IMG/VR virus record: IMGVR_UViG_3300009152_000002
DNA from: an uncultured virus (IMG/VR IMGVR_UViG_3300009152_000002)
Lineage: Duplodnaviria > Heunggongvirae > Uroviricota > Caudoviricetes
Length of the DNA stretch: 64,000 bases
Strand: one strand, 5' to 3'
Shown piece after piece: positions 3,189 to 43,820 of this stretch. The notes under the pieces were generated by a model, which saw nothing but the letters and a program-made list of their open reading frames with translations, was not told the origin of the DNA and did no database searches. Both the position numbers and the translations under genes were made by a program. The stretch's first letter is position 1; each line of letters opens with the position of its first letter.

Positions 3189-3407
3189 ATGACCACCACA
3201 GCATATGCCACGGTTTACACCATGGAAGTTGAGCGTTACGGCGAATGGGTTACATACGACTTCATGCCTCACGGCAACGGTAAGGTATACACCAAGCCCA
3301 GCTTTGGCCCGGCGAAGACGCTTTCAACCGAAGAAGCAAGGCGGCTTTGGCGTGCTTTGCTCCGCAAAGGTTGGATGCTACGCCCTGAACCCTGCATCGA
3401 CTTCTAA
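3189..3407 (+). CDS. Hypothetical early protein
   Basis: 72-aa ORF, first of the plus-strand array, followed by a GC hairpin (GGGGC-TTTCGG-GCCCC). Confidence 0.6.
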   Translation: MTTTAYATVYTMEVERYGEWVTYDFMPHGNGKVYTKPSFGPAKTLSTEEARRLWRALLRKGWMLRPEPCIDF

Positions 3408-3765
3408 CCACGGCATAACATGGGGGCTTTCGGGCCCCTATACCACCATATACCCAGAATTTACGCCCTTGTTACCAAATCAACACCGTTTATAGACTAC
3501 AATACCCCTGTACTTCCCTTCAAATCCCTTCCAGCGCAGCGCCTCCCGCCTAATGCGCCAGATGGCTTGTTGGGATTCAAAATTTTTCGGCATGAACTGT
3601 GGAAACCTTAGAAATATTACTTCACAAATAATGTCTTTAATTTCAGGAATTTGGTGCAGTAGTTAATACCTGCAACCCTGATAGTTGCCTCCAAGGATTT
3701 TAATCCCGATCAGGATTAATCCTTAGATGCAGCTTTCATGCTGTTTGTACTTTACCTCAGGGTCA

Positions 3766-4020
3766 ATGTTCAACCTCTATCCCACTGATGTACCTTCAGT
3801 TGAGTCGCTTCAGGCTGATCTCCAGTTAGCTGACTGTGAGATTGATCTGCTTAGCGAAAAGCTGCTGAGCACCAAGCTAGCCCAACAGGGTAACGCTCGG
3901 ATCGCAGTTGCTTGTGCATCAGCTGTAGTTATTGGTGCAGTTATTGCCTGGAAATCACCTCTAGGCAAGAAGGTACGCACCAAGATTGTTTCTGCAATCG
4001 CTCCAGTTGCGTCCGTTTAA
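3766..4020 (+). CDS. Hypothetical protein with C-terminal transmembrane helix
   Basis: Internal ATG of ORF 3727..4020; hydrophobic IAVACASAVVIGAVIAW segment. Confidence 0.6.
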   Translation: MFNLYPTDVPSVESLQADLQLADCEIDLLSEKLLSTKLAQQGNARIAVACASAVVIGAVIAWKSPLGKKVRTKIVSAIAPVASV

Positions 4021-4058
4021 GCGGCATGCCAGGGTGCAATCCCCTGGCCAACTATTGC
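4005..4058 (+). ncRNA. tRNA-like three-way-junction element, copy 1
   Basis: AGTTG/CAACT closing stem, CCG-TTTAAG-CGG hairpin, GCCAGGG-TGCAATC-CCCTGGC arm, then ATTGC; stems covary with copies 2 and 3. Confidence 0.7.
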
Positions 4059-4074
4059 CTGCAATTCAGCAGGC

Positions 4075-4359
4075 TTGCACACCATCACTTTCGTCGTCAT
4101 GACCGAAGCTACCGTGTACCACCAGCTCCAGGATCTCCGTCTGCTCGCCAGAAGGGATTCCTCGCTCCGTTCCATCCAGATGGATCAAGAGCTGGAGCTG
4201 TTCCGTCTGTGCTTTCTTGAAGCTTTTGAACAGTGGATGGATGGCATGGAAGAGATGGACCTGACTCCGTTTATCGTAACGGCAGACAACATCATCTCTG
4301 GCAATCGTGATCTACTGAAGTGGCTCAAGCGAGAGCTTGACACGGATGTAGACCGCTGA
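4075..4359 (+). CDS. Hypothetical early protein
   Basis: 94-aa ORF bounded by structured spacers. Confidence 0.6.
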   Translation: MHTITFVVMTEATVYHQLQDLRLLARRDSSLRSIQMDQELELFRLCFLEAFEQWMDGMEEMDLTPFIVTADNIISGNRDLLKWLKRELDTDVDR

Positions 4360-4363
4360 TGAA

Positions 4364-4431
4364 CAATACAGGCTTCGGCCTGCCACTGAACGGAGGGTAA
4401 TCCTCCTAGCAATACAGACTTTGGTCTGCCA
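4364..4431 (+). repeat. Tandem hairpin repeat CAATA-CAGRC-TTYG-GYCTG-CCA (x2)
   Basis: 4364-4385 and 4410-4431, with a compensatory G-C to A-T change, flanking a GGAGG-GTAAT-CCTCC hairpin. Confidence 0.65.
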
Positions 4432-4482
4432 TTCACCGCATGCCTCCAGGGGAGATAGGCACCCCGCACACGGAGTAATACC

Positions 4483-4647
4483 GTGGCAATTTACGTTTAC
4501 GTCGTAACTTTGTGTGATCTTCACCAGGATCACCTCGTCGGCGTTTACGGCACCCAAGAAGGTGCTCAGCGTTATGTTGACCGTGAAGAAGAATTTCTTG
4601 ACGCAACTGAACGCTTAATCATCAACAAGGAGTTGGTGAGAAACTGA
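4483..4647 (+). CDS. Small hypothetical protein (54 aa)
   Basis: GGAG SD, GTG start, MAIYVYVVTLCDLHQDHLVGVYGTQEGAQRYV; its stop lies inside RNA repeat copy 2. Confidence 0.55.
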   Translation: MAIYVYVVTLCDLHQDHLVGVYGTQEGAQRYVDREEEFLDATERLIINKELVRN

Positions 4648-4695
4648 GTCCGTTTAAGCGGCGTTGGCAGGTGCAATCCCTGCCTTCAGTATTGC
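4642..4695 (+). ncRNA. tRNA-like three-way-junction element, copy 2
   Basis: ACTGAG/TTCAGT, CCG-TTTAAG-CGG, GGCAGG-TGCAATC-CCTGCC; 54 bp identical to copy 3. Confidence 0.7.
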
Positions 4696-4772
4696 AAGAA
4701 CAGCCTTTAGAGGCAGTTTTTGCTTTTGTGCTTTCTAGGGATATAAGCACCCTGCACGCACCGGAGCACACC

Positions 4773-5036
4773 GTGAGCGTTTTTAACACCGCAACCGTCA
4801 GCGACGACGGCCTTCTGCAAGAAGGTCTGTTGCTTCCCACTAGGGAGGAGGTTGCAGAACAAGCCTTCAATAACGTCCGGTTTTGGATGGAAGAAGGCCA
4901 CTCGCAGTTGCTTAGCCGTGAGCAAGCACTTGAGATTGCCGCATGGGGTCTCAAGATTGCTGGCTATAGCGATCTACAACACCAGGTTCTTGCAGAACTT
5001 GTTGTGCTTCCCGAAGAAGCACTACAGCCGCTGTAG
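4773..5036 (+). CDS. Hypothetical early protein
   Basis: GGAG plus GTG start within ORF 4671..5036, lying between two identical repeats. Confidence 0.6.
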   Translation: MSVFNTATVSDDGLLQEGLLLPTREEVAEQAFNNVRFWMEEGHSQLLSREQALEIAAWGLKIAGYSDLQHQVLAELVVLPEEALQPL

Positions 5037-5043
5037 CTACTAC

Positions 5044-5097
5044 AACTGAGTCCGTTTAAGCGGCGTTGGCAGGTGCAATCCCTGCCTTCAGTATTGC
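5044..5097 (+). ncRNA. tRNA-like three-way-junction element, copy 3
   Basis: Identical to 4642-4695; followed by a TGCCCA-GCAA-TGGGCA hairpin. Confidence 0.7.
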
Positions 5098-5131
5098 CCA
5101 GCAATGGGCACTTATCCTCTGCACCAATACC

Positions 5132-5407
5132 ATGTCTTTTGGTCGTGTTTTACTGCTCGGAACTGCAGCCATCGGCGGTACGTTCATTGCAATGAAGCCA
5201 GAAACTCGTCAGAAGGTCAAACAAATCGTAGCTGTAAGGCTGCATAGGCTTGGCAATTTGCTTGATCCTCAAGGTCCTCCACCCATGTGGACCGATGCGG
5301 CAGAGCCTGACACTACAGTACCCGCTGCGCAAGACGAAAGTATTGCCCCAGCTGATGTACCCGAGGAAGAAGACCGCACCATTCAAGGTTTTAAGGTCAA
5401 GAAGTAA
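5132..5407 (+). CDS. Hypothetical protein with N-terminal membrane anchor
   Basis: MSFGRVLLLGTAAIGGTFIAM and an acidic tail. Confidence 0.6.
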   Translation: MSFGRVLLLGTAAIGGTFIAMKPETRQKVKQIVAVRLHRLGNLLDPQGPPPMWTDAAEPDTTVPAAQDESIAPADVPEEEDRTIQGFKVKK

Positions 5408-5412
5408 CTTCC

Positions 5413-5474
5413 AGGACGAAACCAGGGGGAGCAATCTCTCTGGTCGGCCAGTTTTGCTGGCCCTGATGAGTCCT
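5413..5474 (+). ncRNA. Type II hammerhead ribozyme
   Basis: AGGAC-GAAA; stem III ACCAGGGGGA-GCAA-TCTCTCTGGT; cleavage triplet GTC (C5445); stem I GGCCAG-TTTTG-CTGGCC; CTGATGA core; GTCCT closes stem II. Confidence 0.93.
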
Positions 5475-5488
5475 TCACCTCTTCCATC

Positions 5489-5704
5489 ATGAACGATCTA
5501 ACCAAGTCTTATCTTGCAATCTTTATTGGATCAGCTGTTGGTTTTGGACTCTGTGTTGGATTCCAACGGTATCTCAATGCTGAGACAACCAAACACTGCC
5601 CAAGTATTTACACCGTTAAATACGTTAAGTCAGCTGTGGGGGATATAGCGCGTTGTACGTCTCGTGCAAAGTTCTATGGCCCAGCTACTCCATTAAACGA
5701 TTAG
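5489..5704 (+). CDS. Hypothetical membrane protein
   Basis: 71 aa with an N-terminal TM helix, immediately downstream of the hammerhead. Confidence 0.6.
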   Translation: MNDLTKSYLAIFIGSAVGFGLCVGFQRYLNAETTKHCPSIYTVKYVKSAVGDIARCTSRAKFYGPATPLND

Positions 5705-5772
5705 ATATGGTTTCTTTTGTGTTTAACACCACACTTGTGGTGCTGTTCATGTTGTTACTTTGTCTTTAAATC

Positions 5773-5991
5773 ATGCCTGCTATTAGCTTGTACGTTACTA
5801 ACGACGACTGGAACTTCTTGTGCCAACTTGCAGCAGAGAATCACTCTCTGCCTGTGGCATTTACTGAGCAGCTTGTCGCCAGTAAGTTGAGGGATATCCG
5901 GGATGAGATCCGGTATGTCGAGGAAACTCAACAAGAACTTGATACATTGGCTGAATTTATGGAGAAATCCGTAGAGGAAGCTCTTTCTTAA
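5773..5991 (+). CDS. Hypothetical protein, possibly ribbon-helix-helix
   Basis: ISLYVTNDDWNFLCQLAAE pattern. Confidence 0.55.
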   Translation: MPAISLYVTNDDWNFLCQLAAENHSLPVAFTEQLVASKLRDIRDEIRYVEETQQELDTLAEFMEKSVEEALS

Positions 5992-6025
5992 TTGGTTCTT
6001 AACTTTCCCACTTGTACTAACTTCA

Positions 6026-6223
6026 ATGCCTCTTTCCTATTTTCCTCCAGGTGCAGAAACCACTCGCGTTTCCTGGTATGGAGGTGACTCAACGCAACTT
6101 CACTATGAAGTGCGACGAGATAATGAGTGGTCTGGCGTTGTAACCAAGACCCTCATGGATATGCCTACAGGCGTTAAGGAACTCAGTCAGAAATTGGTTG
6201 AGTTTTATAACGACTGTTCTTGA
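6026..6223 (+). CDS. Hypothetical protein
   Basis: 65-aa ORF in the array. Confidence 0.55.
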   Translation: MPLSYFPPGAETTRVSWYGGDSTQLHYEVRRDNEWSGVVTKTLMDMPTGVKELSQKLVEFYNDCS

Positions 6224-6295
6224 TGTTCTCCCTAAGGGGCTTCGGCCCTTTACTGAGGACTTCATGTCCTCCTTTGTACACACTGCCACATCACC

Positions 6296-6697
6296 ATGTC
6301 TGCTGTTAACTGCGGAACCATTGTCGGTACCATCGTGTCTGACATTGTCACCAGGGTTCCCAACGATTCTCTGCAAGTGACACAGTTCCGCTGTGCTCCT
6401 CTCGACGCCAGGGAAGAAGATTCTCCAGTTCCGATGACCGCTTACAACGGAGTCGGCGAGAATATCGTCCAGCGTTATAACAAGGGTGACACAGTCGCTC
6501 TAACTTACCGCTTGCGGTACAACACCTGGCAGACGCCAGAAGGTGAACCCCGTGGCCGTATGGAGATCGTTGTGACCTCCAGCACCACAGTTCGCCTCGG
6601 TCAAATCAGTACTGCCCAACGGGCTGCTGATGCTGCTGGCGTTGCTAAGCCCGTAGAAGCAGAAGTGGTTCCATCCTTGGAAGCAATTCCTTTCTGA
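6296..6697 (+). CDS. ssb: Single-stranded DNA-binding protein-like (OB fold)
   Basis: KGDTVALTYRLRYNTWQTPEGEPRGRMEIVV and C-terminal EAIPF. Confidence 0.75.
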   Translation: MSAVNCGTIVGTIVSDIVTRVPNDSLQVTQFRCAPLDAREEDSPVPMTAYNGVGENIVQRYNKGDTVALTYRLRYNTWQTPEGEPRGRMEIVVTSSTTVRLGQISTAQRAADAAGVAKPVEAEVVPSLEAIPF

Positions 6698-6857
6698 CGG
6701 TTGCGCTGAGGGGCTTCGGCCTCTCTCCGCAGCCCTCATGGCTGCACAATTCTTTGCTTTTATGCCCAATGAAACGTACACTTGCAGAGGCTCACCCCAT
6801 TGAGCTTCTAATCTTCTTGTTCATCACAGTTTTTGAAGCAGTTGTCACTATTTACCA

Positions 6858-7193
6858 ATGCACACCACTCTTGCTCTCCAGAAAGAATCAGAAGCAGAAC
6901 GTCTCAGTCGCTTCGGTGATTGGTATGACAACTACTGCAATTTCGAAGGTGAACCAACTACGATCACCATCCACGAAGTCTGGGACCAATATGGTGGCCC
7001 AGAAGAAGGTGGATGGACCTACCAATGCGGTGGCCCCATCGAAACCATCTGCATCTTCTCCAAAGCGCAGGCGGTCCGTGAACTCCACAGGCTTCACGCC
7101 AAGTACGAAGAAGACGAGGACACCTGCTATGACATCTGTCTAGCCCAGAAATACGCCGAAGCCTACCCACCTAGCAAACCTTTCTACGAATAA
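6858..7193 (+). CDS. Hypothetical phage protein
   Basis: YGGPEEGGWTY motif typical of small phage proteins. Confidence 0.65.
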   Translation: MHTTLALQKESEAERLSRFGDWYDNYCNFEGEPTTITIHEVWDQYGGPEEGGWTYQCGGPIETICIFSKAQAVRELHRLHAKYEEDEDTCYDICLAQKYAEAYPPSKPFYE

Positions 7194-7198
7194 CTACC

Positions 7199-7480
7199 AT
7201 GGCATTACTTCCTGAACAGCTTGAGATTGCTTCTGTTTTTGGTTACACTCCAGCAACAGAAGAAGAGCGTGGCGAACCTGCTGACACTTCACTGTGCAGC
7301 AAGAAGATAGAAATCGTTGATGGTTGGCCACACATCCGCTTTAAAGGTGAGCTGTGTCCCGTACCAAACATAGAAGAAGTAGAAGAGTGGGTGTTTGACT
7401 CAGTCTGCTTCACTCCAGATGAAGATGAGGTTGAGCCAGACCACCCACACTCCTGGCTTTCTATTCTTGGACTGATCTAA
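7199..7480 (+). CDS. Hypothetical phage protein
   Basis: C-terminal VEPDHPHSWLSILGLI. Confidence 0.65.
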   Translation: MALLPEQLEIASVFGYTPATEEERGEPADTSLCSKKIEIVDGWPHIRFKGELCPVPNIEEVEEWVFDSVCFTPDEDEVEPDHPHSWLSILGLI

Positions 7481-10804: not shown

Positions 10805-11152
10805 ATGACTAATCAACACCCAATCACCCCACCGCCTGAGCTGGTGCAGCAGTGGCGTGAAGAATCAAGCACAGGTGAGCTTCACTTTTCCCCGCAATAC
10901 TTAGCTACTCAAGCCGCCCGCTGGGGCGCCGACCAGGAGCTGGAGGCGTGTTGTGGATTTATTGGATCTGAACACAGCGTTGCTTGGAGTCACAAACTCC
11001 GTACTAGCCGCCGCCCCAAGCCGCCGAGCTTGAAGGAGCAGGCGCTGGAGGCACTGGAAGTAGAAGACGATGCAATGCCTCTTAGGAGCTTGGAAAGAAG
11101 CGAACGCTTTGATACCATTCGCCGCGCACTGGAGGCATTGCCCAATGACTGA
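10805..11152 (+). CDS. Hypothetical modular phage protein
   Basis: ITPPPELVQQW...ARWGADQELEAC...IRRALEALPND. Confidence 0.7.
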   Translation: MTNQHPITPPPELVQQWREESSTGELHFSPQYLATQAARWGADQELEACCGFIGSEHSVAWSHKLRTSRRPKPPSLKEQALEALEVEDDAMPLRSLERSERFDTIRRALEALPND

Positions 11153-11360
11153 CCTCTCCCCCGCAGCGCAGGCAGTGCTGGATGCTTATAAAAACGTTCC
11201 AGACTTGATGCTTGACGGTGATCCTGACGAAGTAGAACGGCGCCTTGGTTTAGCCGCCGCCTTTCGCGCTGCTGCTGGTTATTTATTTCCAAAAGACACA
11301 GCACAGCAGTGTTATGACCGCATCCTCGCCATCGCCGCTGAGCTGGAGGCCCATGACTAA
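11145..11360 (+). CDS. Hypothetical modular phage protein (LSPAAQAVLDA family)
   Basis: Paralogous to 18755..18988 and to the C-terminus of 18975..19382. Confidence 0.7.
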   Translation: MTDLSPAAQAVLDAYKNVPDLMLDGDPDEVERRLGLAAAFRAAAGYLFPKDTAQQCYDRILAIAAELEAHD

Positions 11361-11829
11361 CCACGTTCCCAACGATCTCAGCCACCTCAGCGAGGAAGAG
11401 TTCAATTCGCTTTGCCCGCAAGGTAAACACGCACCAGGGCCAGCCATGACTGACTTCCGCGCCCTATGCGAAGAGCTTGTCGATGCCCTTAAAGACGAAA
11501 ACACCTACACGATAAGGATTGAGCTGATTGATCGCGCCCGCGCCGCCCTGGCTGAGCAGCCGGTGGTACCCACGGATGAAGACCTTTACGATTTAGCTGA
11601 GGTGTTTAACGGTGAGCCGGTGCCGGTGGGCGAGCGGCTGCCAGGGCCGGAGGATTGGGATTCGGAGGGGAGGTGCTGGATGTTTGATCCTTGTGACCGT
11701 GGATGGTGGGCTTACCGCCCAGCCCTTCCCAGTGATGACGAGATAGGGCGCCCCCCGTGGACCCACTGGCTCCCCCACTGGACGCTGCCGGTGCCCACAC
11801 CCGTCAACGCCCGCTGGGGGCAGTCATGA
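11353..11829 (+). CDS. Hypothetical modular phage protein (AEQPVxPTDE...ARWGQ family)
   Basis: Shares modules with 18378..18758. Confidence 0.65.
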   Translation: MTNHVPNDLSHLSEEEFNSLCPQGKHAPGPAMTDFRALCEELVDALKDENTYTIRIELIDRARAALAEQPVVPTDEDLYDLAEVFNGEPVPVGERLPGPEDWDSEGRCWMFDPCDRGWWAYRPALPSDDEIGRPPWTHWLPHWTLPVPTPVNARWGQS

Positions 11830-17033: not shown

Positions 17034-17088
17034 AGAAGGCGTGAAGCGTGGTTACCGCCGCGCCATCGAGGCATTGCCCAATGACTGA
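16993..17088 (+). CDS. Short chimeric ORF ending in the EALPND module
   Basis: MKPKIYMILSQAVEEGVKRGYRRAIEALPND*. Confidence 0.5.
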   Translation: MKPKIYMILSQAVEEGVKRGYRRAIEALPND

Positions 17089-17266
17089 CTTCCTGAATCT
17101 CAAGATTTCTCAGAAACAAATTGTGTGTCCTAAACATGGCACCCACACCCAGTTCATCAGCAGCACCGTCGAAGGTCACGAAGGTCACTGGTGCATGTTG
17201 TGCTGGCTAGAAAGCCTTGGTCCATCACTTCCCACTGTTAGCGAACTGGAGGCATTGCCCAAATGA
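17081..17266 (+). CDS. Small putative Zn-binding protein
   Basis: CPKH...CMLC; ends LEALPK. Confidence 0.6.
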   Translation: MTDFLNLKISQKQIVCPKHGTHTQFISSTVEGHEGHWCMLCWLESLGPSLPTVSELEALPK

Positions 17267-17481
17267 CTAACATCAAACTTTACAAACTTGACGCTGCATT
17301 CGCACAGCTACAAGAGTTTGACTGCCTTGCCAAGCCTGATGAGTTCATCGAGCTGGTTCTATGGCGGAACGGCGAAGGCTTTGACACCCACCTAAGCAGC
17401 GGCACTGGCGAACAATCAATCAGGCTGACATGGGGTGAGTTCAAGGCACTGAAAAAACTCGTAAAGGAGCTGGACCAATGA
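17263..17481 (+). CDS. Hypothetical protein
   Basis: WRNGEGFD motif; ATGA overlap. Confidence 0.6.
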   Translation: MTNIKLYKLDAAFAQLQEFDCLAKPDEFIELVLWRNGEGFDTHLSSGTGEQSIRLTWGEFKALKKLVKELDQ

Positions 17482-18381: not shown

Positions 18382-18758
18382 CTGACCTGCACCCTTGGGT
18401 AACAACCAAACTCCAGCCACCGCCTGAAAGCAGCATCCTTTTCCGCTTGCCACCCCATCCCAATGAAGTTATCCGCCTCGACAAGGAAGGCTTCCACTAC
18501 CGGGGCCAATTCATTGCGGACGCCGGAGAAGCTCACCGTCTGATGGTGGAGTTCCTGCGTCAAAGCATCAGTCCCGTCCTGGCTGAGCAGCCGGTGGGGC
18601 CCACGGATGAGGAGCTGCTGGAGTTGTCCCAGTTCCACGGCATTACCTATTGCATGAGGGACGGAAGCTTTATCCGCCCAATGCAGGAGGGTGAAGACAT
18701 AAGCGACGACGTGGTGTCTTTCGCCCGCGCCGTTCTTGCTCGCTGGGGGCAGCCATGA
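18378..18758 (+). CDS. Hypothetical modular phage protein
   Basis: GFHYRGQFIADAGEAHR fused to AEQPVGPTDEEL...ARWGQP. Confidence 0.65.
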   Translation: MTDLHPWVTTKLQPPPESSILFRLPPHPNEVIRLDKEGFHYRGQFIADAGEAHRLMVEFLRQSISPVLAEQPVGPTDEELLELSQFHGITYCMRDGSFIRPMQEGEDISDDVVSFARAVLARWGQP

Positions 18759-18988
18759 CTACCCTCTCCCCCACCGCACAATTTGTGCTGGATGCCTACT
18801 ACACCGAAGCAGATCGCCTTGACCGCGAAGTTAGCCACGAGGAAATGCTCGCCGCCGCCCTTCGCGCTGCTGCAAAACAAAGCACCTTTGCCGACGTAGC
18901 GGTAAACAAAACGATTGAGGTAGTCCCTGTCGATATCCTCCTCGCCATCGCCGCCGAACTGGAAGCATTGCCAAATGACCGACCCTGA
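18755..18988 (+). CDS. Hypothetical modular phage protein (LSPAAQAVLDA family)
   Basis: LSPTAQFVLDA...AAALRAAA...ILLAIAAELEALPND. Confidence 0.65.
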   Translation: MTTLSPTAQFVLDAYYTEADRLDREVSHEEMLAAALRAAAKQSTFADVAVNKTIEVVPVDILLAIAAELEALPNDRP

Positions 18989-19382
18989 CGACCGTAAGGA
19001 TCAACTCTGCACCGAATGCGGTGTTGGACGTTATCAAGAAACCAGCATTCACGATGACTGGGATGGAGTGCTTCACTGCAACAACAAAAAGTGCAACCAC
19101 GAAGTGAAAAGGTACAAGTCCGATGATAACCCTCCACCAAAACCTAAGAAGGCCCAACTGTCGCCCGCTGCTCAAGCTGTGCTGGATGCCGCAATCAATG
19201 TTGCTGAATCGCCAGACGCTGAGGCTATTGTTGCCGCCGCCCTTCGCGCTGCTGCGGATCAGGTGGTGCCAGAAAACGCAAATGCTGTTGGGGATGAGCA
19301 CGACGACGCCCGCCATGATCAGTGGATGCGTATTCGATACAAGATCCTCGCCATTGCCGACGAGCTGGAGGGTGCCCAATGA
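18975..19382 (+). CDS. Zn-ribbon fused to an LSPAAQAVLDA module
   Basis: CTECG...CNNKKC N-terminus; family module at the C-terminus. Confidence 0.65.
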   Translation: MTDPDDRKDQLCTECGVGRYQETSIHDDWDGVLHCNNKKCNHEVKRYKSDDNPPPKPKKAQLSPAAQAVLDAAINVAESPDAEAIVAAALRAAADQVVPENANAVGDEHDDARHDQWMRIRYKILAIADELEGAQ

Positions 19383-22546: not shown

Positions 22547-22789
22547 GTGCATCGCGGTTACTCTCTGTGCTCACCTGCTCTAGACCAGGTGCTATGCTTG
22601 TCGAGCAACAAACAAAGTTTGTTCATGGCTTCCGTTGATAGTACACAAGTACTAAATAATGCACTTTGTTTGCATGATTTAACAGAAGCTAAAAATGTTT
22701 TGAAGCGATTAAACGCTTCAGAATACACAGATGTTGTTAAAGATGTAGAAGTCCACAACATCGCCAGGTTGTATAACAAATTTTTCTAA
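22547..22789 (+). CDS. Hypothetical protein
   Basis: TAATG overlap with the polymerase gene. Confidence 0.55.
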   Translation: MHRGYSLCSPALDQVLCLSSNKQSLFMASVDSTQVLNNALCLHDLTEAKNVLKRLNASEYTDVVKDVEVHNIARLYNKFF

Positions 22790-25416
22790 TGTCCAAGTAC
22801 ATTCTTGACCTTGAGTCTGACGGTTTGATCCCTCAGATGACGAAGATTCATTGTATTGTTCTCAAGAATATTGACACAGGAGAGATTATTAGTTGTGCTG
22901 ATCAACCAGGTTACCCTTCACTTGAAACAGCCCTCGATTATATAAGCGAAGCTGATCTATTAGTCTTCCACAACGGTATAAAATTTGATATTCCGGCTTT
23001 AAAAAAGATCTATAGTGGCCTCGCCCTAAAGCCGACCTGTCAGTTTTATGACACTCTTATCTCCAGTCGCCTTTTTTGGCCTGAGCTTGAGCCTGTTGAC
23101 CGTGCCAAGTGGAGCCACATTGAAGCAAAATATCTGGGGCGACACTCCCTTGCCGCTTGGGGTGAACGTCTTGGTGTTGCCAAGATCAAATTCACTGAAA
23201 ACGCCAAAAAAGATCCTGCAGTAGTAAATGTTTGGGCTGAGTGGTCAGCCCAGATGCAGGTTTACTGTGAGGGCGACGTTGAAGTATCCGACGCCCTTTA
23301 CAAGTACATGCTGTCTCAGAATCCTGATCCTCGTTCCTTGGAACTGGAGCATGAGTTTGCTATCGTGATGTCCAAGCAGGAGCAATTTGGATTTCCTTTC
23401 AATGAGAAAGCGGCCTTCGCACTGGTTAACACCCTTAAAGCTGAGCGCTCTGAGATTGACGAGCAGCTCCAGGAGGTATTCCCTCCTATTGTCGAGAGCA
23501 GAGTCTCCGCTAAAACAGGGAAGCCGCTTAAGAGTAAAGTTACAGTCTTCAATCCCGCTTCCCGCCAGCAGACGGCCGAACGGCTTACGGCGCTTTACCC
23601 AGAAATCACGTTCGCTTCCACGGATAAAGGTAATCCTCAGGTGGATGACGATGTCCTGGAGGCGTTGGGAAACAGATATCCTGAAGCTAAAATACTAGCT
23701 AGGTATCAACTTCTTAACAAACGAATTGGCCAGATTGCGGATGGGAAGGAATCTTGGCTTAAACACTGCCAGGTCTATGGCGATGGACGGATTCACGGAG
23801 AAGTGGTTACTAACGCATGCGTTTCTGGGCGCTGCTCTCACAAGCGTCCAAACATGGCGCAGGTACCTAGCGTCGGTCACGCTTATGGTGCTGAATGCCG
23901 TAGCCTTTTCTATGCCCCTGAGGGTTGGCAGTTAGTTGGCGCGGACGCATCAGGATTGGAATTGCGAGCGCTTGGAGCTTGGCTTGCCTACTTTGATGGA
24001 GGAGAGTACGCACGCCTTGTTAGTACAGATGGTTTCGACATTCATACTCATAATGCTCGCCTCTTCGGTATTTATAGTTCTGATTCTCCTATAGAAAAAG
24101 CAACCCGTGATTTATCGAAGCGGCTTATTTACTGCGTACCGGTAGATAATACCCAAGTTCTTACTAAAACTGGCTGGAAAACGTACGAACAACTCAAAGT
24201 TGGTGAGCTTGTTCTTACTTACAATCAAGAAAAAAATATAAAAGAGTGGAAACCAATTTTACATATTGTTGATGCTTACGAGGATGAAGTATGGGAGATG
24301 TCTCACAATCATTCTTATAAAGTACAGGCAACCGCTGACCATCGTTGGTATGTAAGAAAAAGAACGCAAGCAAAACACGTTCAATGTGGATGGAAAACAG
24401 GGGCCCGTTACATGGTTCCCAAGGTAGAAACAACTGCAGAAATTAACCAGGAGTCAAACATCATTGTTAATGCCCCACTTGTTGAAGAGGACTGTGAAGG
24501 CATAAGCGTTGATTGGGACTGGCCCAAGTATGGGACCAACTGGACAGAGAAGGTGTTACAAATGAATTCCGCCCAACGCAGGGCCTGGCTTTCGGGCTTT
24601 ATGCTGGCTGATGGTTACCAAATCATTAAGCCAAATCAAAAAATCCGCTGGGTCATCTCTCAGTTAAAAAATGAGCACTACGAAGCTGCTCTTCTTGCGG
24701 CTTATCTTGAATTCGACGGTCACCTCCACGTTTCACAAGGCGTTCAGCCCAATGGCAAAACAAAAATGCAAATTACAATATCAACAAGAGGCCACGTAAC
24801 CGGACAGAAACTTAAAAAAGAATGTATCGGTAAGAAAAAAGTTTTTTGCATCTCTACTGAAAATGAATCTTTCGTTATGCGTCAGGGTGAAACTATTACC
24901 ATTACAGGTAATTGCATATTGTATGGTGGTGGGGCTAGAAAAACTGGATCCATTGTTGACCCTAGTGGAACAGAAGACCAGCAATATCGTATTGGCAAGA
25001 AAACAATTGACACTTTCTATAAGAACCTACCAGCTATTAAAAAGCTCAAGGATCTTATCGATGAGAGGGTTGATAAACGCGGCTACCTTTCTGGTATTGA
25101 TGGGCGCAGGCTACAAATTCGCTCTAAACACTCAGCCCTTAACCAGTTGCTCCAATCCACGGGTGCGGTCACTGTAAAGAAAGCTACAACAATTCTTTAT
25201 AATGATCTCATCACCAGGGGTTTGAAGTTTGGTAAAGATTGGGCATTTGTTGCACATGTACACGACGAATTTCAAACCTTAGTTAGACCCGAATACGTTG
25301 AACTTTATAAAGAGTTAGCTATTGATTCGTTCCGTAAATCTGGTGAGTACTTTAACTTAAAGTGCCCTATGACTGGTGAGGCCAGGGTGGGTCAGAATTG
25401 GGAACAAACGCACTAA
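22789..25416 (+). CDS. polA: Family A DNA polymerase (T7-like) with 3'-5' exonuclease, intein-containing
   Basis: DLESDG, HNGIKFD, YCEGDV; motif A DASGLELR; motif B KRLIY/CILYGG split by the intein; motif C HVHDEFQ. Confidence 0.95.
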   Translation: MSKYILDLESDGLIPQMTKIHCIVLKNIDTGEIISCADQPGYPSLETALDYISEADLLVFHNGIKFDIPALKKIYSGLALKPTCQFYDTLISSRLFWPELEPVDRAKWSHIEAKYLGRHSLAAWGERLGVAKIKFTENAKKDPAVVNVWAEWSAQMQVYCEGDVEVSDALYKYMLSQNPDPRSLELEHEFAIVMSKQEQFGFPFNEKAAFALVNTLKAERSEIDEQLQEVFPPIVESRVSAKTGKPLKSKVTVFNPASRQQTAERLTALYPEITFASTDKGNPQVDDDVLEALGNRYPEAKILARYQLLNKRIGQIADGKESWLKHCQVYGDGRIHGEVVTNACVSGRCSHKRPNMAQVPSVGHAYGAECRSLFYAPEGWQLVGADASGLELRALGAWLAYFDGGEYARLVSTDGFDIHTHNARLFGIYSSDSPIEKATRDLSKRLIYCVPVDNTQVLTKTGWKTYEQLKVGELVLTYNQEKNIKEWKPILHIVDAYEDEVWEMSHNHSYKVQATADHRWYVRKRTQAKHVQCGWKTGARYMVPKVETTAEINQESNIIVNAPLVEEDCEGISVDWDWPKYGTNWTEKVLQMNSAQRRAWLSGFMLADGYQIIKPNQKIRWVISQLKNEHYEAALLAAYLEFDGHLHVSQGVQPNGKTKMQITISTRGHVTGQKLKKECIGKKKVFCISTENESFVMRQGETITITGNCILYGGGARKTGSIVDPSGTEDQQYRIGKKTIDTFYKNLPAIKKLKDLIDERVDKRGYLSGIDGRRLQIRSKHSALNQLLQSTGAVTVKKATTILYNDLITRGLKFGKDWAFVAHVHDEFQTLVRPEYVELYKELAIDSFRKSGEYFNLKCPMTGEARVGQNWEQTH
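24133..24912 (+). mobile_element. Intein (260 aa) in polymerase motif B
   Basis: Starts CVPVDNTQVLT, block B ATADHRW, LAGLIDADG-like LSGFMLADG, ends VFCIST...ITGN; the +1 residue is Cys. Confidence 0.9.
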
Positions 25417-35896: not shown

Positions 35897-38524
35897 GTGA
35901 CAACCGCAGCACCAGAGCCTAATCCACCTCAAAAACACCTTACTCCAGGGCAGATCAACCTGGACCTGCTGCCGGTTGACTTTCCCCTAACTCCCTTGCG
36001 CGGGAAGAAAGCGTACCTCCCCGGTTGGACCTCGGATCCGAAAACCGTAGCAGAAATTCGGAAGGAATTGGATGAAGGTCGGGCCACGGGCGTCGGTCTT
36101 CTTTGCGGTCAGTGGAGCAACGAGCTTGCCCTGATCATGGTTGACATAGATGGCGAGGAGGCGATCCCCGCTATCGAAGCCATGGGTGGCGGTCCAATTG
36201 ATTCGATTTTCCCTCCCACCCTCACCATCGGCAGCGGAAAGCCTGGTCGGTTCCGGATGGTATTCCGGGTTCCGCCAAGCAAGGTTCAATTGTTGCCGGA
36301 TAAGGCGACTTTAAAAGTTGATAAGGCTCCATGGGAGATCCTCTGGCGCAGTCGAATGGGGGTATTGATGGGTGCCCACCCCGAAACAGACGGGTACTTC
36401 ACCACACCTCATGGCGGTTTTGAGTGGTGCAAAAACCTGCCCGAGATGCCGGATTGGTTGTACGAGCAGATCTTTAAGGCTTATCCCTCCAGTCGGTACC
36501 GCAAACGGAACTCTGCTACACCTGGGATTTTTGTTGCCCAGAGCATCAACCTAAACTATGAAGAGGACAGTGAGTTCCAAAAGGAATCCATCCTTGAAGA
36601 AGCTAGGGAGTATCTCGTCACGCTGAACCCTGAGCGGGCCGATGATTATGAAGAGTGGGTTGCCGTTGGGATGGCCCTCCACCAGATTGATGATCTGCTC
36701 CTCAATGATTGGATTGAGTGGTCTGCCCAATCTTCTCACTTTGAAGATGGCTGTTGTGAGGAGAAATGGGGCAGTTTTGAACGTCTGCCAGGTGGTCACT
36801 CCCCAGAGGGCGCAAGGGGTCTGAAGACTTTACGAGCCAAGGCCAAGGAGGATGGTTACGTCAGTCTTGGTGGGTTTGAGGTTCCTAATCTGGAGGTTAT
36901 ACAGAAGCGAGTTGCAGCTGAGATGGCTGAGATGGGAATTGAAATGCCTCTAGGACCGCAGAATTTATTTGGTAATCGGCGTCTGGCAGAGAAGTTTGGC
37001 TACGGCGAGGACGGTGAAGATGATGACGATGAGGATAGTGGCGACGGTAGTTGCTTCATGGGCCGCAAAAAGGGCTCGCGCAACCCGCCCTCCTCTGAGA
37101 TCGCCAACTTCATCATGCCCATGTTCATGAAGCTGGGCTGGCGGTACGACGCCAAGTTCGATGTCTTCATGCAGTACGACAAGCACCGTGGTGTCTGGAA
37201 TAAACAAGACCACAGCAAGGATTTCAAGCAACAGGTGCAGTTCCAGCTGGAAAATTTGAACCTTCCTAACGGGTACAGCACTAACTTGATTGCGGATGTC
37301 ACCTCACTGATGGAGGGGCACATCGCTCACTACGATTGGTGCAACGATCCGACGCGTCTCGCGTTCCAAAACGGTGTCCTGGAGCTGGATACCGATGAGT
37401 TTGTGGAGCACAGCCCCGATAATTACATTACCTGGGGGCTAGATTTTAAATATGATCCTACTGCTGATCCCGGTCCTATTACTGAGTGGTTGTTCCGTAC
37501 CCAGTATGGAGATGAGGCTCGGGTGCAGGTTCTGCGGGCCTGGCTTCGTTCCTGTCTCGTCGGTAAGGGCAACGAAATCCAGCGATTCCTTGAGGTTATC
37601 GGTCCTGGTGGACGAGGAAAATCTACCTTTGCCAACTTATGTTCCGCGCTTGTTGGTTGCGGTAACTTTTCCAGCACCACTCTCAACCAGTTGGAGCAGA
37701 GCAGATTTGAGCTTTCCTCGATCAAGGGGAAGCGCCTTACGCTGATCAATGACTCTGAACGATACGGTGGTTCTGCTCAGACCTTTAAGGCACTGACAGG
37801 TGGTGACTCCCTCCGTTATGAGGAGAAGCTAAAGAGTATTGGTGAGCCGTTTGTTTATACCGGCATGGTTATGGTGGTTGCCAACGAACCGATCCAGACC
37901 ACGGATAACACGTCCGGTTTGAGCCGTCGTCGCCTCACAATTGAGTTTAATAGGTCCTTATATAACAAGAGTAGTGAAGCCAAAGACATGATCAAGATCG
38001 ACAAAGGTCACATCAGTGGTCTTTGGAAGGATTATTTACCTGGGTTAGTGAACTGGGTTCTGGCTATGTCGGAGCAGGATATGCGCCGTTACCTCCTAGA
38101 CACGCAGGAATTGGTTCCGTCGCTGCGGAAGGTGCGGAACAATATTCTTCTCAATAGTAACAACCTTATTGAGTGGCTTCAATCGGAATGTGTATACGAT
38201 GAGAAACATGTTTCGGCAGTTGGCAAGAAGATTCCAGCGCCACGGGAGCAGAATGGTGGTCCGACCGAGCGTTACTGCAACAGCCACAGCCATTTGTATC
38301 CCAGCTACTGTTCCTTTGCGGAGGATACTGGCTCCAAGGCGGTCGGGCAGAAGCGCTTTATTAACTTGTTGATGGACTGCTGCCGCAACCAGTTGGGCAT
38401 GGATACCGTTTCCACCTTTAGCAAGTACGGTAGACCTTTCTTCAAGGGGATCGCAATTCGCGGCTCGGATCAAAAGTTCAAGAGTTATCCTACGATCTTA
38501 GCTGAGGGTAAGGAAGAGGAGTAG
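35897..38524 (+). CDS. Primase-helicase (PrimPol + PriCT-2 + D5-like SF3 helicase)
   Basis: VDIDG; YEEWVAVGMALH...WIEWS; Walker A GPGGRGKST; KALTGGD. Confidence 0.9.
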   Translation: MTTAAPEPNPPQKHLTPGQINLDLLPVDFPLTPLRGKKAYLPGWTSDPKTVAEIRKELDEGRATGVGLLCGQWSNELALIMVDIDGEEAIPAIEAMGGGPIDSIFPPTLTIGSGKPGRFRMVFRVPPSKVQLLPDKATLKVDKAPWEILWRSRMGVLMGAHPETDGYFTTPHGGFEWCKNLPEMPDWLYEQIFKAYPSSRYRKRNSATPGIFVAQSINLNYEEDSEFQKESILEEAREYLVTLNPERADDYEEWVAVGMALHQIDDLLLNDWIEWSAQSSHFEDGCCEEKWGSFERLPGGHSPEGARGLKTLRAKAKEDGYVSLGGFEVPNLEVIQKRVAAEMAEMGIEMPLGPQNLFGNRRLAEKFGYGEDGEDDDDEDSGDGSCFMGRKKGSRNPPSSEIANFIMPMFMKLGWRYDAKFDVFMQYDKHRGVWNKQDHSKDFKQQVQFQLENLNLPNGYSTNLIADVTSLMEGHIAHYDWCNDPTRLAFQNGVLELDTDEFVEHSPDNYITWGLDFKYDPTADPGPITEWLFRTQYGDEARVQVLRAWLRSCLVGKGNEIQRFLEVIGPGGRGKSTFANLCSALVGCGNFSSTTLNQLEQSRFELSSIKGKRLTLINDSERYGGSAQTFKALTGGDSLRYEEKLKSIGEPFVYTGMVMVVANEPIQTTDNTSGLSRRRLTIEFNRSLYNKSSEAKDMIKIDKGHISGLWKDYLPGLVNWVLAMSEQDMRRYLLDTQELVPSLRKVRNNILLNSNNLIEWLQSECVYDEKHVSAVGKKIPAPREQNGGPTERYCNSHSHLYPSYCSFAEDTGSKAVGQKRFINLLMDCCRNQLGMDTVSTFSKYGRPFFKGIAIRGSDQKFKSYPTILAEGKEEE

Positions 38525-38571: not shown

Positions 38572-38614
38572 CCCCTAGTCCCCTTCCGCTAGGGGGTTTC
38601 TTTTTATTAAAAAT
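38572..38614. terminator. Terminator-like hairpin, repeated at 39156-39199
   Basis: CCCCTAG...CTAGGGG followed by TTTCTTTTT. Confidence 0.65.
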
Positions 38615-39126: not shown

Positions 39127-39249
39127 GGTTGCTTGTTGTTTTATTTATTAGTTTACCCCTAACCCCCTTCAGTTGGGGGTTTCTTTTTGTTGAAAAATTG
39201 CAGCACACGCCCAACAGCGTAAAGCGTTACCAGAACCACAACGGCGCGT

Positions 39250-43325: not shown

Positions 43326-43514
43326 ATGGAAGTAATGCAAACTTTTTTGAACGGAACTGTTATCGAGTTCGGGGACGATTTACACGGAAATCAAGTACAT
43401 CGTGTGTCACATCCCGCCAGTACAGCCTACCGTTACGTCGAACCGTATACCTGTGCGCTCGTTTATGCTGAACAATATGAAAAACAGTACGGCAAGATAG
43501 AGGTTTGGCGTTAG
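43326..43514 (+). CDS. Hypothetical protein
   Basis: 62-aa ORF. Confidence 0.5.
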   Translation: MEVMQTFLNGTVIEFGDDLHGNQVHRVSHPASTAYRYVEPYTCALVYAEQYEKQYGKIEVWR

Positions 43515-43785: not shown

Positions 43786-43820
43786 GCTACCCTTTAAGCG
43801 CAACGAGGCTTTCCCCTAAC

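What the first reader, a model, noticed from the sequence alone, without database searches (positions are those of the whole stretch)
3693..6745. Early-gene array punctuated by four classes of structured RNA, a candidate multi-mechanism mRNA processing system
Seen: within ~3 kb, most intergenic spacers carry a structured element. These are three tRNA-like junction repeats (4005, 4642, 5044), a hammerhead ribozyme (5413), a tandem CAATA-hairpin-CCA pair (4364) and three double-hairpin YTCAT elements (3693, 6234, 6708). Known: T7 cuts its early polycistron at RNase III sites, and P1/P4 C4/CI RNAs are RNase P substrates. Inference: this phage may split its early transcript into individually stabilised mRNAs by combining self-cleavage with host tRNA-processing enzymes.
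Basis: partly seen in the sequence, partly recalled or inferred. Interest (0 to 1): 0.8.

Follow-up and report, generated by a model that had tools for sequence, protein, structure and literature searches.

The report
RNA punctuation marks between phage genes
Between the small first genes of this lake phage sit several interchangeable folded RNA elements (a self-cutting hammerhead, mini tRNA look-alikes and hairpins that hold the stop codon), which most likely mark where one long message is cut and capped into single-gene pieces.

Summary
Window 3.68-6.75 kb is an array of ten small same-strand genes in a freshwater phage related to cyanophage S-EIVl. Eight of its ten gene-front spacers carry a classed structured element.

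- **Mini-tRNA elements:** three ~48-nt three-way junctions (4002-4062, 4639-4699, 5041-5101). The family covaries strongly (109 distinct copies, 94.5% paired) and is absent from Rfam 15.
- **Hammerhead:** one type II hammerhead (5413-5474) with an intact core, conserved with covariation in relatives.
- **'YTCAT' elements:** these are really long hairpins that begin at the upstream stop codon. UGA pairs with the UCA of 'YUCAW', and there is an alternative 3' hairpin (26 copies, 97% paired).
- **CAATA hairpin pair:** real, but without relatives.
a covarying 5'-UTR module (4441-4485, 4728-4775).

In relatives the same junction holds a hammerhead, a mini-tRNA or a stop-codon hairpin interchangeably. 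All element types start at or near the stop codon and are confined to one strand and one zone.

Best reading (about 0.55): these are intercistronic RNA processing and end-capping signals. Cleavage, and which enzymes perform it, remain unshown. The hammerhead part is known. The other families appear undescribed.

The parts
3679..3744 (+). Leader copy of the stop-codon-hairpin element (M2-like). Layout: UGA 3679-3681, X 3683-3688, large inner hairpin, X' 3729-3734, UCA 3736-3738, X'' 3740-3744.
   Evidence: Fold z -4.0, though the antisense strand folds equally well. The homologous leader in L002 keeps the X:X' helix through a both-sided change (GGUUGC/GCAGCC versus AGUUGC/GCAGCU), read by eye. 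Model R2 does not find this copy.
3766..6697 (+). Nine small genes: g1 3766-4020, g2 4099-4359, g3 4483-4647, g4 4773-5036, g5 5132-5407, g6 5489-5704, g7 5773-5991, g8 6026-6223, g9 6296-6697 (SSB family). g10 follows at 6858-7193.
   Evidence: ORFs. No PHROG family for any of them. In Pfam, only g9 hits (SSB, 29.9 bits). Homologues occur in relatives in shuffled order.
4002..4062 (+). Mini-tRNA element (TLE-A) copy 1. Closing stem 4005-4009/4049-4053, hairpin 1, T-arm-like hairpin with loop UGCAAUC, tail AUUGCC. The g1 stop codon UAA (4018-4020) lies in the hairpin-1 loop.
   Evidence: R1 66.7 bits. Both-sided changes relative to copies 2 and 3 in both stems.
4054..4074 (+). Tail AUUGCC running into hairpin GCCUGC-AAUUCA-GCAGGC, 25 nt before the g2 start codon.
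   Evidence: z -2.4. Hairpins at the same position, UGCCnn...nnGGCA, occur in relatives.
4364..4431 (+). Two CAAUA-hairpin-CCA units (4364-4385, 4410-4431) flanking the hairpin GGAGG-GUAAU-CCUCC (4392-4406).
   Evidence: No copy in 14 related loci, and none in IMG/VR by pattern.
4441..4485 (+). 5'-UTR module E2, copy a. UGCCU...AGGCA; stem GGGG 4449-4452 / CCCC 4462-4465 around the loop AGAUAGGCA. This is followed by a hairpin CACGG/CCGUG that holds the SD GGAG (4472-4475) and the GUG start codon (4483-4485).
4639..4699 (+). TLE-A copy 2. The g3 stop codon UGA (4645-4647) lies inside the closing-stem 5' strand ACUGAG (4643-4648).
   Evidence: R1 72.7 bits. Sequence.
4728..4775 (+). E2 copy b. 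GUGCUU...AAGCAC; stem AGGG 4737-4740 / CCCU 4750-4753; SD 4763-4766; GUG start 4773-4775.
5041..5101 (+). TLE-A copy 3, identical to copy 2 over 54 nt. It starts 8 nt after the g4 stop codon. It is followed by AUUGCC and the hairpin UGCCCA-GCAA-UGGGCA (5095-5110).
5413..5474 (+). Type II hammerhead. Stem II 5413-5417/5470-5474; GAA 5418-5420; stem III hairpin 5421-5444 (GCAA loop); C17 at 5445; stem I hairpin 5446-5462; CUGAUGA 5463-5469. The predicted cut lies between 5445 and 5446, 38 nt after the g5 stop codon, leaving a 43-nt leader for g6.
   Evidence: Hammerheads lie upstream of the g6 homologue in L145, L147, L148 and L002. Covariation.
6221..6271 (+). Stop-codon hairpin element M2, copy 1. 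The g8 stop UGA (6221-6223) pairs with the UCA of 'UUCAU'. X 6225-6230, UUCG-capped hairpin, X' 6255-6260, X'' 6266-6271.
   Evidence: R2 63.8 bits..
6695..6745 (+). M2 copy 2. g9 stop UGA 6695-6697, X 6699-6705, X' 6729-6734, X'' 6740-6745.
   Evidence: R2 64.5 bits. An M2 follows the g9 homologue in 7 of the 7 loci searched that hold g9.

Best explanation
The first roughly 3.5 kb of the phage's rightward gene block is probably made as one long RNA. That RNA is punctuated at nearly every gene boundary by a plug-in structured RNA module. Each module begins at or within about 10 nt of the upstream stop codon. Its likely job is to separate the message into single-gene mRNAs whose new ends are capped by hairpins.

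**Module types**
1. **Type II hammerhead.** It cuts itself (between 5445 and 5446 here). The upstream piece ends in the stem III hairpin. The downstream piece starts with the stem I hairpin and a 43-nt leader.
2. **Mini-tRNA (TLE).** A 5-6 bp closing stem is stacked on a 6-7 bp T-arm-like hairpin, about 12 bp in all as in the tRNA acceptor/T minihelix, with one side hairpin. The following tail A-UU-GCC runs into the next hairpin. I infer that a host tRNA 3'-processing-type endonuclease (RNase Z, or RNase E) cuts after the closing stem. The upstream mRNA would keep its stop codon and a compact 3' end. The downstream mRNA would start with a 5' hairpin.
3. **Stop-codon hairpin (M2).** This is a helix of about 17 bp with two internal loops, starting at the UGA. 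It resembles a T7-type RNase III site. Its 3' strand can re-pair with a downstream copy of the 5' strand to give a 5'-terminal hairpin.
4. **CAAUA hairpins.** Their role is open.

**Shown:** the structures, their covariation, their strand and zone restriction, and their interchangeability.

**Inferred:** that a single transcript exists, that cuts occur, where they occur, and which enzymes make them.
For: **TLE**
- A MAFFT alignment of 23 copies gives 93.1% paired cells against 31-45% when the partner columns are slid. It has 92 double-changed cells against 35 in shuffles (0 of 500 shuffles reach the observed value).
- 136 model matches in 76 further IMG/VR loci give 109 distinct rows, 94.5% paired, with 15 of 17 pairs changed on both sides.
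- No locus has copies on both strands (0 of 77 loci).
- 126 of 139 copies follow an open frame of at least 40 codons that ends inside or just before the element. In 76 copies the frame ends at the UGA in the closing stem.
- Median spacing between successive copies is 283 nt.
- In four whole relatives (three complete) plus one 76%-complete contig that ends inside the zone, all hits lie in a single stretch of 0.3-1.4 kb per record.
- The T stem plus the closing stem sum to 12 bp in 63 of 109 copies, and to 11-13 bp in 105 of 109.
- The tail, which was not part of the search pattern, is A 102, U 109, U 109 of 109.
- Rfam's tRNA model aligns a type-B copy end to end (acceptor stem plus T arm) at 21.1 bits.

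**Hammerhead**
- Across 9 distinct copies in this lineage the core is invariant, 95.3% of cells are paired, and 11 of 19 pairs are changed on both sides.

**M2**
- 26 copies are 97% paired, with 51 double-changed cells against 15.5 in shuffles.
- The long hairpin is the MFE structure in 26 of 26 copies.
- A copy with a UAA stop codon pairs it with UUA instead of UCA.

**Slot equivalence**
- After the g2 homologue: CAAUA pair plus E2 (window), hammerhead plus E2 (L002), M2 (L144), TLE (L145-L148).
- Before the g8 homologue: M2 (L002, L009) or TLE-B (L001, L007).
- A hammerhead lies upstream of the g6 homologue in 5 of 6 distinct loci.

**Other**
- Sigma-70-like promoters and terminators are not enriched in the array (3 found against 7.0 expected; 8 against 6.3).
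- Perreault et al. 2011 (PMC3088659, passages read) showed that hammerheads flanking prophage genes cut ~2-kb transcripts in vitro. They proposed processing of polycistronic phage RNA.
Against: - The window's TLE-A copies do not hit the tRNA model at E<=10, and ARAGORN calls none in 11 relatives.
- The stop codon lies in the TLE 5' strand. A 5' (RNase P-type) cut would produce messages without a stop codon, so only a 3' cut makes sense. No CCA follows the stem.
- The sense strand folds better than the antisense strand in only 92 of 129 TLEs (mean -19.6 versus -18.3 kcal/mol). The strand argument therefore rests mainly on gene context.
- The window hammerhead scores below Rfam's gathering score (19.1 against 37). 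By eye, it also lacks the loop I-to-3'-tail pseudoknot of the type II consensus, so it may be slow.
- Two junctions (g6/g7 and g7/g8) carry no classed element.
- Gene-sized blastn matches to relatives begin and end at the junction elements. A DNA-level role as recombination joints is therefore not excluded.
- M2 is shorter than classical RNase III substrates.
- A3 was fitted to the model, and the TLE set was seeded by a sequence pattern. Conservation of the seeded motifs is therefore partly built into the sample.
Confidence: 0.55

Rival explanations
1. The elements act without being cut. They would be translation-linked switches or insulators. A ribosome terminating at the embedded stop codon melts the closing helix. 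This toggles alternative folds (M2 X:X' versus X':X''; E2 P_a versus P_b; the SD/start hairpin). The toggle would set translation of the next gene, ribosome recycling, or resistance to exonucleases.
For: - The stop codon is built into the 5' strand of TLE (76 of 139 at the closing-stem UGA), of M2 (UGA:UCA and UAA:UUA) and of hammerhead stem II in L002.
- M2 has two mutually exclusive pairings in 26 of 26 copies.
- E2 has two interleaved helices that cannot coexist (plus loop-length reasoning).
- The SD and start codon are paired in 5 of 19 E2 copies in one fixed register, including a CAUGG/CCAUG variant.
Against: - A hammerhead, whose only known activity is cleavage, occupies the same slots.
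- In conformer A of M2 nothing downstream is sequestered, so no effect on the next start codon is evident.
- The two readings are not exclusive.
Confidence: 0.2
2. The elements are primarily DNA-level joints. Short conserved sequences between variable genes would serve as homologous-recombination sites that shuffle early-gene cassettes, as proposed for boundary sequences and the promoter-stem-loop cassettes of T4-type phages (recalled knowledge).
For: - Gene order differs between relatives. For example, g8 and g9 are swapped in L002, and g2 is followed by g6 there.
- Gene-sized blastn matches start and stop at the elements, while the elements themselves match many loci regardless of flanking genes.
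- TLE copies 2 and 3 are 100% identical over 54 nt.
- The element supplies stop codons in two frames.
Against: - Extensive both-sided compensatory changes keep the pairing while destroying sequence identity. This helps RNA folding, not homologous recombination.
- Orientation is strictly one strand (0 of 77 loci mixed).
- Unpaired loop nucleotides are invariant.
- Different element types replace one another.
Confidence: 0.1
3. The mini-tRNA element (and/or M2) is itself an undescribed self-cleaving ribozyme. It would need no host enzyme.
For: - It shares slots and neighbourhoods with hammerheads. Pistol, hatchet and twister-sister were found by the same logic; I recall this from Weinberg 2015, which is cited in PMC5737381 (read).
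- It is compact (~48 nt) with invariant unpaired nucleotides.
- It occurs in sequences labelled with very different hosts (Prochlorococcus single-cell genomes, Ktedonobacteraceae MAGs, a gut 'archaeon' MAG). This fits a host-independent activity.
Against: - Type B copies are plainly tRNA-derived, and the 12-bp stack fits tRNA-enzyme measuring.
- tRNA-processing enzymes are universal, so the breadth of hosts is equally explained.
- No known ribozyme family matches.
Confidence: 0.07

Closest known systems
Clustered hammerhead ribozymes flanking genes in prophage/phage operons (Perreault et al. 2011, PMC3088659; passages read)
   Same: A type II hammerhead sits in an intergenic spacer of a phage operon. 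Relatives carry several per array. The proposed role is cutting polycistronic RNA into gene-length mRNAs.
   Different: Here the hammerhead is only one of several interchangeable junction modules. The window copy is below Rfam's gathering score and lacks the consensus pseudoknot.
RNase III processing sites between the early genes of phage T7 (R0.3-R1.3; recalled knowledge)
   Same: There is one structured signal per early-gene boundary. The signals are irregular hairpins with internal loops (M2). The expected result is single-gene mRNAs with hairpin-protected ends.
   Different: M2 has about 17 bp, starts exactly at the stop codon, and has a built-in alternative 3' hairpin. RNase III cleavage is untested. 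The other junctions use tRNA-like or ribozyme modules.
Mitochondrial tRNA punctuation and plant-mitochondrial t-elements (recalled; the punctuation model is named in abstracts listed)
   Same: tRNA-shaped structures abut coding regions and could recruit tRNA-end-processing enzymes to define mRNA ends.
   Different: The TLEs are not tRNAs: they have no anticodon arm and no D arm. They overlap the stop codon. They occur in a phage of bacteria. No such use in phages turned up in my searches.
RNase P-processed phage RNAs
   Same: A phage transcript carries a tRNA-like fold that a host tRNA enzyme can cut.
   Different: Those are single regulatory antisense RNAs, not gene-by-gene punctuation. Here a 5' RNase P cut would remove the stop codon.

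Membership tests
Hammerhead ribozyme, type II (Rfam RF02276) | Conserved catalytic core: CUGANGA, GAA, the A15.1-U16.1 pair, and a cleavage-site H17 after U | tested here: met
   CGAAAC...GGUC...CUGAUGA at 5417-5469. The core is invariant in 9 lineage copies.
Hammerhead ribozyme, type II (Rfam RF02276) | Three helices around the core, with stems I and III closed by loops and stem II open (type II topology) | tested here: met
   MFE fold. Covariation: 95.3% paired, 11 of 19 pairs changed on both sides.
Hammerhead ribozyme, type II (Rfam RF02276) | Score at or above Rfam's gathering threshold (37 bits) | tested here: not met
   No hit at gathering threshold on the window. 19.1 bits, E 0.06, on 111 nt. 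The relative L002 copy scores 30.3 bits.
Hammerhead ribozyme, type II (Rfam RF02276) | Pseudoknot between loop I and the tail 3' of stem II (majority of type II; Perreault 2011) | tested here: inconclusive
   By eye, none in the window copy. It is present in the L002, L144, L146 and L147 copies (UUGACA/UGUCAG, with GAGA/UCUC as a variant).
Hammerhead ribozyme, type II (Rfam RF02276) | Self-cleavage | not testable with these tools
   Needs in vitro transcription with Mg2+.
tRNA (Rfam RF00005) / tRNA-like substrate of RNase P and RNase Z | Match to the tRNA covariance model or a tRNA finder | tested here: not met
   Window TLE-A: no tRNA hit at E<=10. ARAGORN finds only tRNA-Leu at 55036 in the window and none in 11 relatives. 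The type B copy L009:2739-2785 scores 21.1 bits, below the gathering score of 29.
tRNA (Rfam RF00005) / tRNA-like substrate of RNase P and RNase Z | Acceptor stem stacked on the T stem, 12 bp in all, with no nucleotide between the T stem and the acceptor 3' strand | tested here: met
   12 bp in 63 of 109 copies, and 11-13 bp in 105 of 109. The gap is 0 nt in 103 of 109.
tRNA (Rfam RF00005) / tRNA-like substrate of RNase P and RNase Z | 7-nt T loop of the UUCRANN type | tested here: inconclusive
   Type A loop is U-G-C-A-A-W-C: positions 1, 3, 4 and 5 fit, and position 2 is G. Type B loops are AUCGAAU, AUCAAAU and UUCGACU.
tRNA (Rfam RF00005) / tRNA-like substrate of RNase P and RNase Z | Cleavage by RNase P or RNase Z | not testable with these tools
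   No RNA data. Enzyme assays are needed.
T7-type RNase III processing signal | Irregular hairpin of roughly two helical turns with internal loop(s), placed between cistrons | tested here: inconclusive
   M2 conformer A has 3+7+7 bp with 1x1 and 2x2 internal loops and is the MFE structure in 26 of 26 copies. This is shorter than the classical ~20 bp or more (recalled figure).
Intrinsic (Rho-independent) terminator | GC-rich hairpin followed directly by a U tract | tested here: not met
   8 terminator-like sites against 6.3 expected. The tails after X'' are C/A-rich in most of the 26 M2 copies. The TLE tail is AUUGCC.

The most novel reading that the evidence does not exclude
The junction slot is a universal socket for RNA-cutting devices. 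On this reading, the mini-tRNA element and/or the stop-codon hairpin is an undiscovered self-cleaving ribozyme class, or a processing signal gated by the terminating ribosome. The evidence for gating is that every module type hides the upstream stop codon in its closing helix, so it can fold and be cut only when the ribosome has left.
Probability: 0.1. Interest if true: 0.9.

Novelty: new variant of a known kind. Interest (0 to 1): 0.68.

Why it matters
If the reading is right, many uncultured phages organise their first genes the way T7 does with RNase III sites and mitochondria do with tRNAs. The difference is a toolbox of swappable RNA modules.

- **Scale.** It also occurs in cyanophage S-EIVl and in Prochlorococcus single-cell assemblies.
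- **New RNA families.** Two large families (the mini-tRNA element and the stop-codon hairpin) match no Rfam 15 family. I found no description of them in the paper searches listed in the report. They carry rich covariation.
- **Function of bacterial hammerheads.** Their biological role is still open. Their interchangeability with the other modules gives a concrete handle on it.
- **A cultured test system.** S-EIVl on Synechococcus sp. PCCC-A2c carries these elements.
- **Annotation.** The elements mark gene ends and could improve ORF calling in phage 'dark matter'.

Tried and rejected
**Searches that found nothing**
- blastn of 3400-7400 and of one TLE against cultured phages: no match.
- The window's own genome is not held.
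- Sequencing runs: no RNA holder is listed, and the DNA holders are freshwater or other metagenomes.
- Relatives found through the 969-aa divergent gene lacked the early region. Their contigs end 0-870 nt upstream of the gene.
- Rfam hits nothing at E<=10 over 3400-7000 except a chance ssnA match, and nothing at gathering threshold in 20 multi-TLE loci.
- My strict scan found no hammerhead in the 76 pattern-derived loci.
- The Rfam hammerhead model on five whole relatives gave only the L002 copy above noise. The same search also gave sub-threshold matches ('rings') in 11 of the 14 control genomes.
- CAATA unit: no copy in 14 loci and 0 IMG/VR matches.
- A coremin-like motif, a lead from an earlier scan note: 0 matches with up to 3 mismatches.
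- PDB and Pfam searches for the 969-aa protein: nothing.

**Ideas tested and dropped**
- YTTTGTAC as a promoter- or RBS-like motif: 9 sites against 5.9 expected, so not enriched.
- My generic scan for three-segment switches was too permissive (212 hits on the + strand, 285 on the - strand), so I discarded it.
- A pseudoknot between the T-like loop GCAA and the tail UUGC. I rejected it because the tail leaves the far end of a 12-bp stack, and because S-EIVl changes the tail to UUACC while keeping the loop.
- E2 as a classical H-type pseudoknot or an HDV-like fold. I rejected both on loop lengths and strand order (reasoning). No Rfam hit supports either.
- Integrase attachment site or decoy for anticodon nucleases. 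I rejected both because no integrase was seen, the element is multi-copy, and it has no anticodon arm.

Full report
**What the window is.**
- It is a tailed phage. It encodes a family A DNA polymerase (22789-25416), a primase/D5-type helicase (35897-38524), thymidylate synthase, dCMP deaminase, an exonuclease, tail spikes and endolysins.
- No whole genome is held for it.
- Its DNA occurs in freshwater and other metagenomes.
- The + strand from about 3.7 to 38.5 kb runs from small unknown genes into the replication genes. A large gene (1-2907, more than 969 aa, no family) diverges from the same point.
- The ten small genes g1-g10 (3766-7193) match no PHROG family. In Pfam only g9 hits (SSB).
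- 'Early' is therefore an inference from position and gene type.
- No RNA polymerase or RNA-processing enzyme was seen in the 64 kb.

**Relatives.**
- A 15-mer from the repeat found 8 true relatives among 16 IMG/VR hits.
- These share the layout: the N-terminus of the divergent large gene, then homologues of g2, g3, g4, g6, g8 and g9 in shuffled order.
- A search with g9 found six closer loci with 63-76% identity.
- The cultured cyanophage S-EIVl (KJ410740.1, 79 kb, host Synechococcus sp. PCCC-A2c) has the same arrangement. It carries two strong copies of the repeat, neither annotated.

**Mini-tRNA element (TLE): structure.**
- The three window copies fold as follows: a 5-6 bp closing stem, a small hairpin (UCCG-UUUAAG-CGG), and a 6-7 bp hairpin with a 7-nt loop UGCAAUC. 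The tail AUUGCC follows.
- On a plain MAFFT alignment of 23 copies, 93.1% of cells pair, against 31-45% when the partner columns are slid. There are 92 double-changed cells against 35 in shuffles, and 0 of 500 shuffles reach the observed value.

**Mini-tRNA element: distribution.**
- Model R1 found 136 copies in 76 loci. These give 109 distinct rows, 94.5% paired, with 15 of 17 pairs changed on both sides. That alignment is fitted to the model, and the set was seeded by the pattern.
- No locus has copies on both strands.
- 126 of 139 copies follow an open frame of at least 40 codons that ends in or just before the element. In 76 copies the frame ends at the UGA inside the closing stem.
- Successive copies are a median 283 nt apart.
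- In whole relatives all copies lie in a single stretch of 0.3-1.4 kb per record.

**Mini-tRNA element: tRNA likeness.**
- The closing stem plus the T-like stem sum to 12 bp in 63 of 109 copies, and to 11-13 bp in 105 of 109.
- The tail, which was not part of the pattern, is nearly invariant: A 102, U 109, U 109 of 109.
- Relatives also carry a type B form with true T loops (AUCGAAU, UUCGACU). Some of these have a cloverleaf-like extra arm.
- Rfam's tRNA model aligns one type B copy end to end (acceptor stem plus T arm, with the D and anticodon arms deleted) at 21.1 bits, below the gathering score of 29.
- The window's type A copies do not hit that model.
- No Rfam 15 family matches the element.

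**Hammerhead.**
- 5413-5474 has a complete type II core. It folds as the expected three-way junction.
- It is the only such site in the window on either strand.
- The predicted cut is between C5445 and G5446.
- Relatives carry nine distinct copies with an invariant core, 95.3% paired cells, and 11 of 19 pairs changed on both sides.
- In 5 of 6 distinct loci a hammerhead lies within about 130 nt upstream of the g6 homologue, as it does here.
- The type II permutation leaves a closed hairpin at both new ends (stem III at the 3' end, stem I at the 5' end). This suits an intercistronic cutter. That point is inference.

**'YTCAT' elements (M2).**
- A regular-expression search followed by alignment gave 26 distinct copies.
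- The stem X:X' plus the inner UUCG/UACG hairpin are 97% paired, with 7 of 14 pairs changed on both sides and 51 double-changed cells against 15.5 in shuffles.
- Folding shows that the helix starts at the stop codon: UGA pairs with the UCA of 'YUCAW'. This long hairpin is the MFE structure in 26 of 26 copies, at a mean of -26.1 kcal/mol against -21.9 for the double-hairpin form.
- A copy whose stop codon is UAA pairs it with UUA.
- In all 26 copies X' can instead pair with a downstream X'' over 6-9 bp.
- Model R2 finds the copies at 6221 and 6695, but not the leader copy at 3679.
- In whole relatives and in S-EIVl, M2 copies lie just downstream of the TLE zone.
- An M2 follows the g9 homologue in 7 of the 7 loci searched that hold g9.

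**CAATA pair.**
- The two units and a middle hairpin are present.
- They differ by one compensatory change.
- No relative was found.
- The middle hairpin, with its CUGA...UAG flanks, could be a decayed TLE. That is a guess.

- Downstream of many TLEs and hammerheads, and twice in the window, lies a leader module of the form UUGCCnn-(stem)-AGAUAGGCA-(stem)-CACA-GGAG-N-GUG.
- Its 4-bp stem is 98.7% paired, with 3 of 4 pairs changed on both sides.
- A second pairing, UGCCnn/nnGGCA, has weaker support. S-EIVl adds some, with UUACC...GGUUA.
- The two pairings are interleaved and cannot coexist. This is unexplained.
- In 5 of 19 copies, CACGG/CCGUG (once CAUGG/CCAUG) pairs the SD with the start codon.

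**Slot equivalence.**
- After the g2 homologue: CAAUA pair plus E2 (window), hammerhead plus E2 (L002), M2 (L144), a TLE variant (L145-L148).
- Before the g8 homologue: nothing (window), M2 (L002, L009), TLE-B (L001, L007).
- All module types begin at, or within about 10 nt of, the upstream stop codon.
- Since one occupant of these slots is a self-cleaving ribozyme, the simplest common role is RNA cleavage with end protection. This was proposed for prophage hammerheads by Perreault et al. 2011 and is known for the T7 RNase III sites (recalled).

**Mechanism, with its limits.**
- For TLE I favour a cut on the 3' side, after the closing stem at A|UU. The stop codon would otherwise be lost.
- This matches the hammerhead, whose cut lies downstream of the stop codon.
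- I recall that RNase Z cuts CCA-less precursors after the discriminator base, before a U. This is unchecked.
- The downstream RNA would then begin with AUUGCC and a hairpin, and with leaders of 39-45 nt in two of the three copies. This is like the 43-nt leader left by the hammerhead.
- For M2, a cut on the 3' side of the internal loop would let X' re-pair with X'' as a 5'-terminal hairpin. This is speculation.
- There is no RNA evidence for any cut.

**Rivals.**
- A translation-linked switch without cutting.
- DNA-level recombination joints. The mosaic boundaries fit this. The compensatory changes and the strict strand bias argue that it is not the primary constraint.
- A new ribozyme.

**Literature.**
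- My searches and the passages I read (PMC3088659; PMC5737381) gave no description of tRNA-like or stop-codon-hairpin punctuation in phages.
- The library lacks most subscription journals, and I read no supplements.
- Earlier notes of this scan describe like systems in other phages. They are unchecked AI notes and not independent support.

Noticed in passing
window 4441-4485 and 4728-4775; relatives listed: Conserved 5'-UTR module with a covarying 4-bp stem around the loop AGAUAGGCA. A competing UGCC/GGCA pairing is interleaved with it. Downstream, a hairpin pairs the SD GG and the GUG/AUG start codon.
   Followed up: partly
KJ410740.1 (S-EIVl) 43446-43505, 43740-43799 and 42648-42717, minus strand: The cultured cyanophage S-EIVl carries two unannotated mini-tRNA elements (65.9 and 52.4 bits) and a weak stop-codon-hairpin copy (20.9 bits). 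They lie in an array of small hypothetical genes. This gives a usable bench system.
   Followed up: partly
L158, L162, L170, L179, L186, L191 (Prochlorococcus single-cell assemblies); L168, L184 (Ktedonobacteraceae MAGs); L153 ('archaeon' MAG, 4 copies); L166: Model R1 finds the mini-tRNA element (32-74 bits) in contigs filed under very different organisms. These are probably phage or prophage DNA.
   Followed up: no
L152 (Oceanimonas baumannii) 1501-1952: Four matches to the degenerate pattern lie 141-142 nt apart, yet model R1 does not score them. This is an unrelated tandem repeat or a divergent form.
   Followed up: no
window 11120-11600, 17056-17273, 18574-19371: Repeat families D3-D6, D11 and D13: three to four paralogous gene starts and segments share 62-89% identity. 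They look like a duplicated small-gene family.
   Followed up: no
window 42945-43022: A perfect 39-bp tandem duplication inside the ORF 42309-43268 (minus strand).
   Followed up: no
window 38580-38622 and 39163-39205: Two similar GC-hairpin-plus-T-run sites (74% identical). They lie just after the end of the rightward replication block and flank the minus-strand gene 38614-39126. They look like terminators.
   Followed up: no
L017-L022: Six contigs holding relatives of the 969-aa gene all stop 0-870 nt upstream of its start. This may be a genome end or an assembly break at the divergent region.
   Followed up: no
window, G001-G004 and S-EIVl: Zonation of junction types: mini-tRNA junctions come first in the array and stop-codon hairpins follow, in every whole record examined.
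   Followed up: partly
window 55036-55118: A tRNA-Leu (anticodon UAA) gene among the minus-strand late genes. It is the only Rfam hit at gathering threshold in the window.
   Followed up: no
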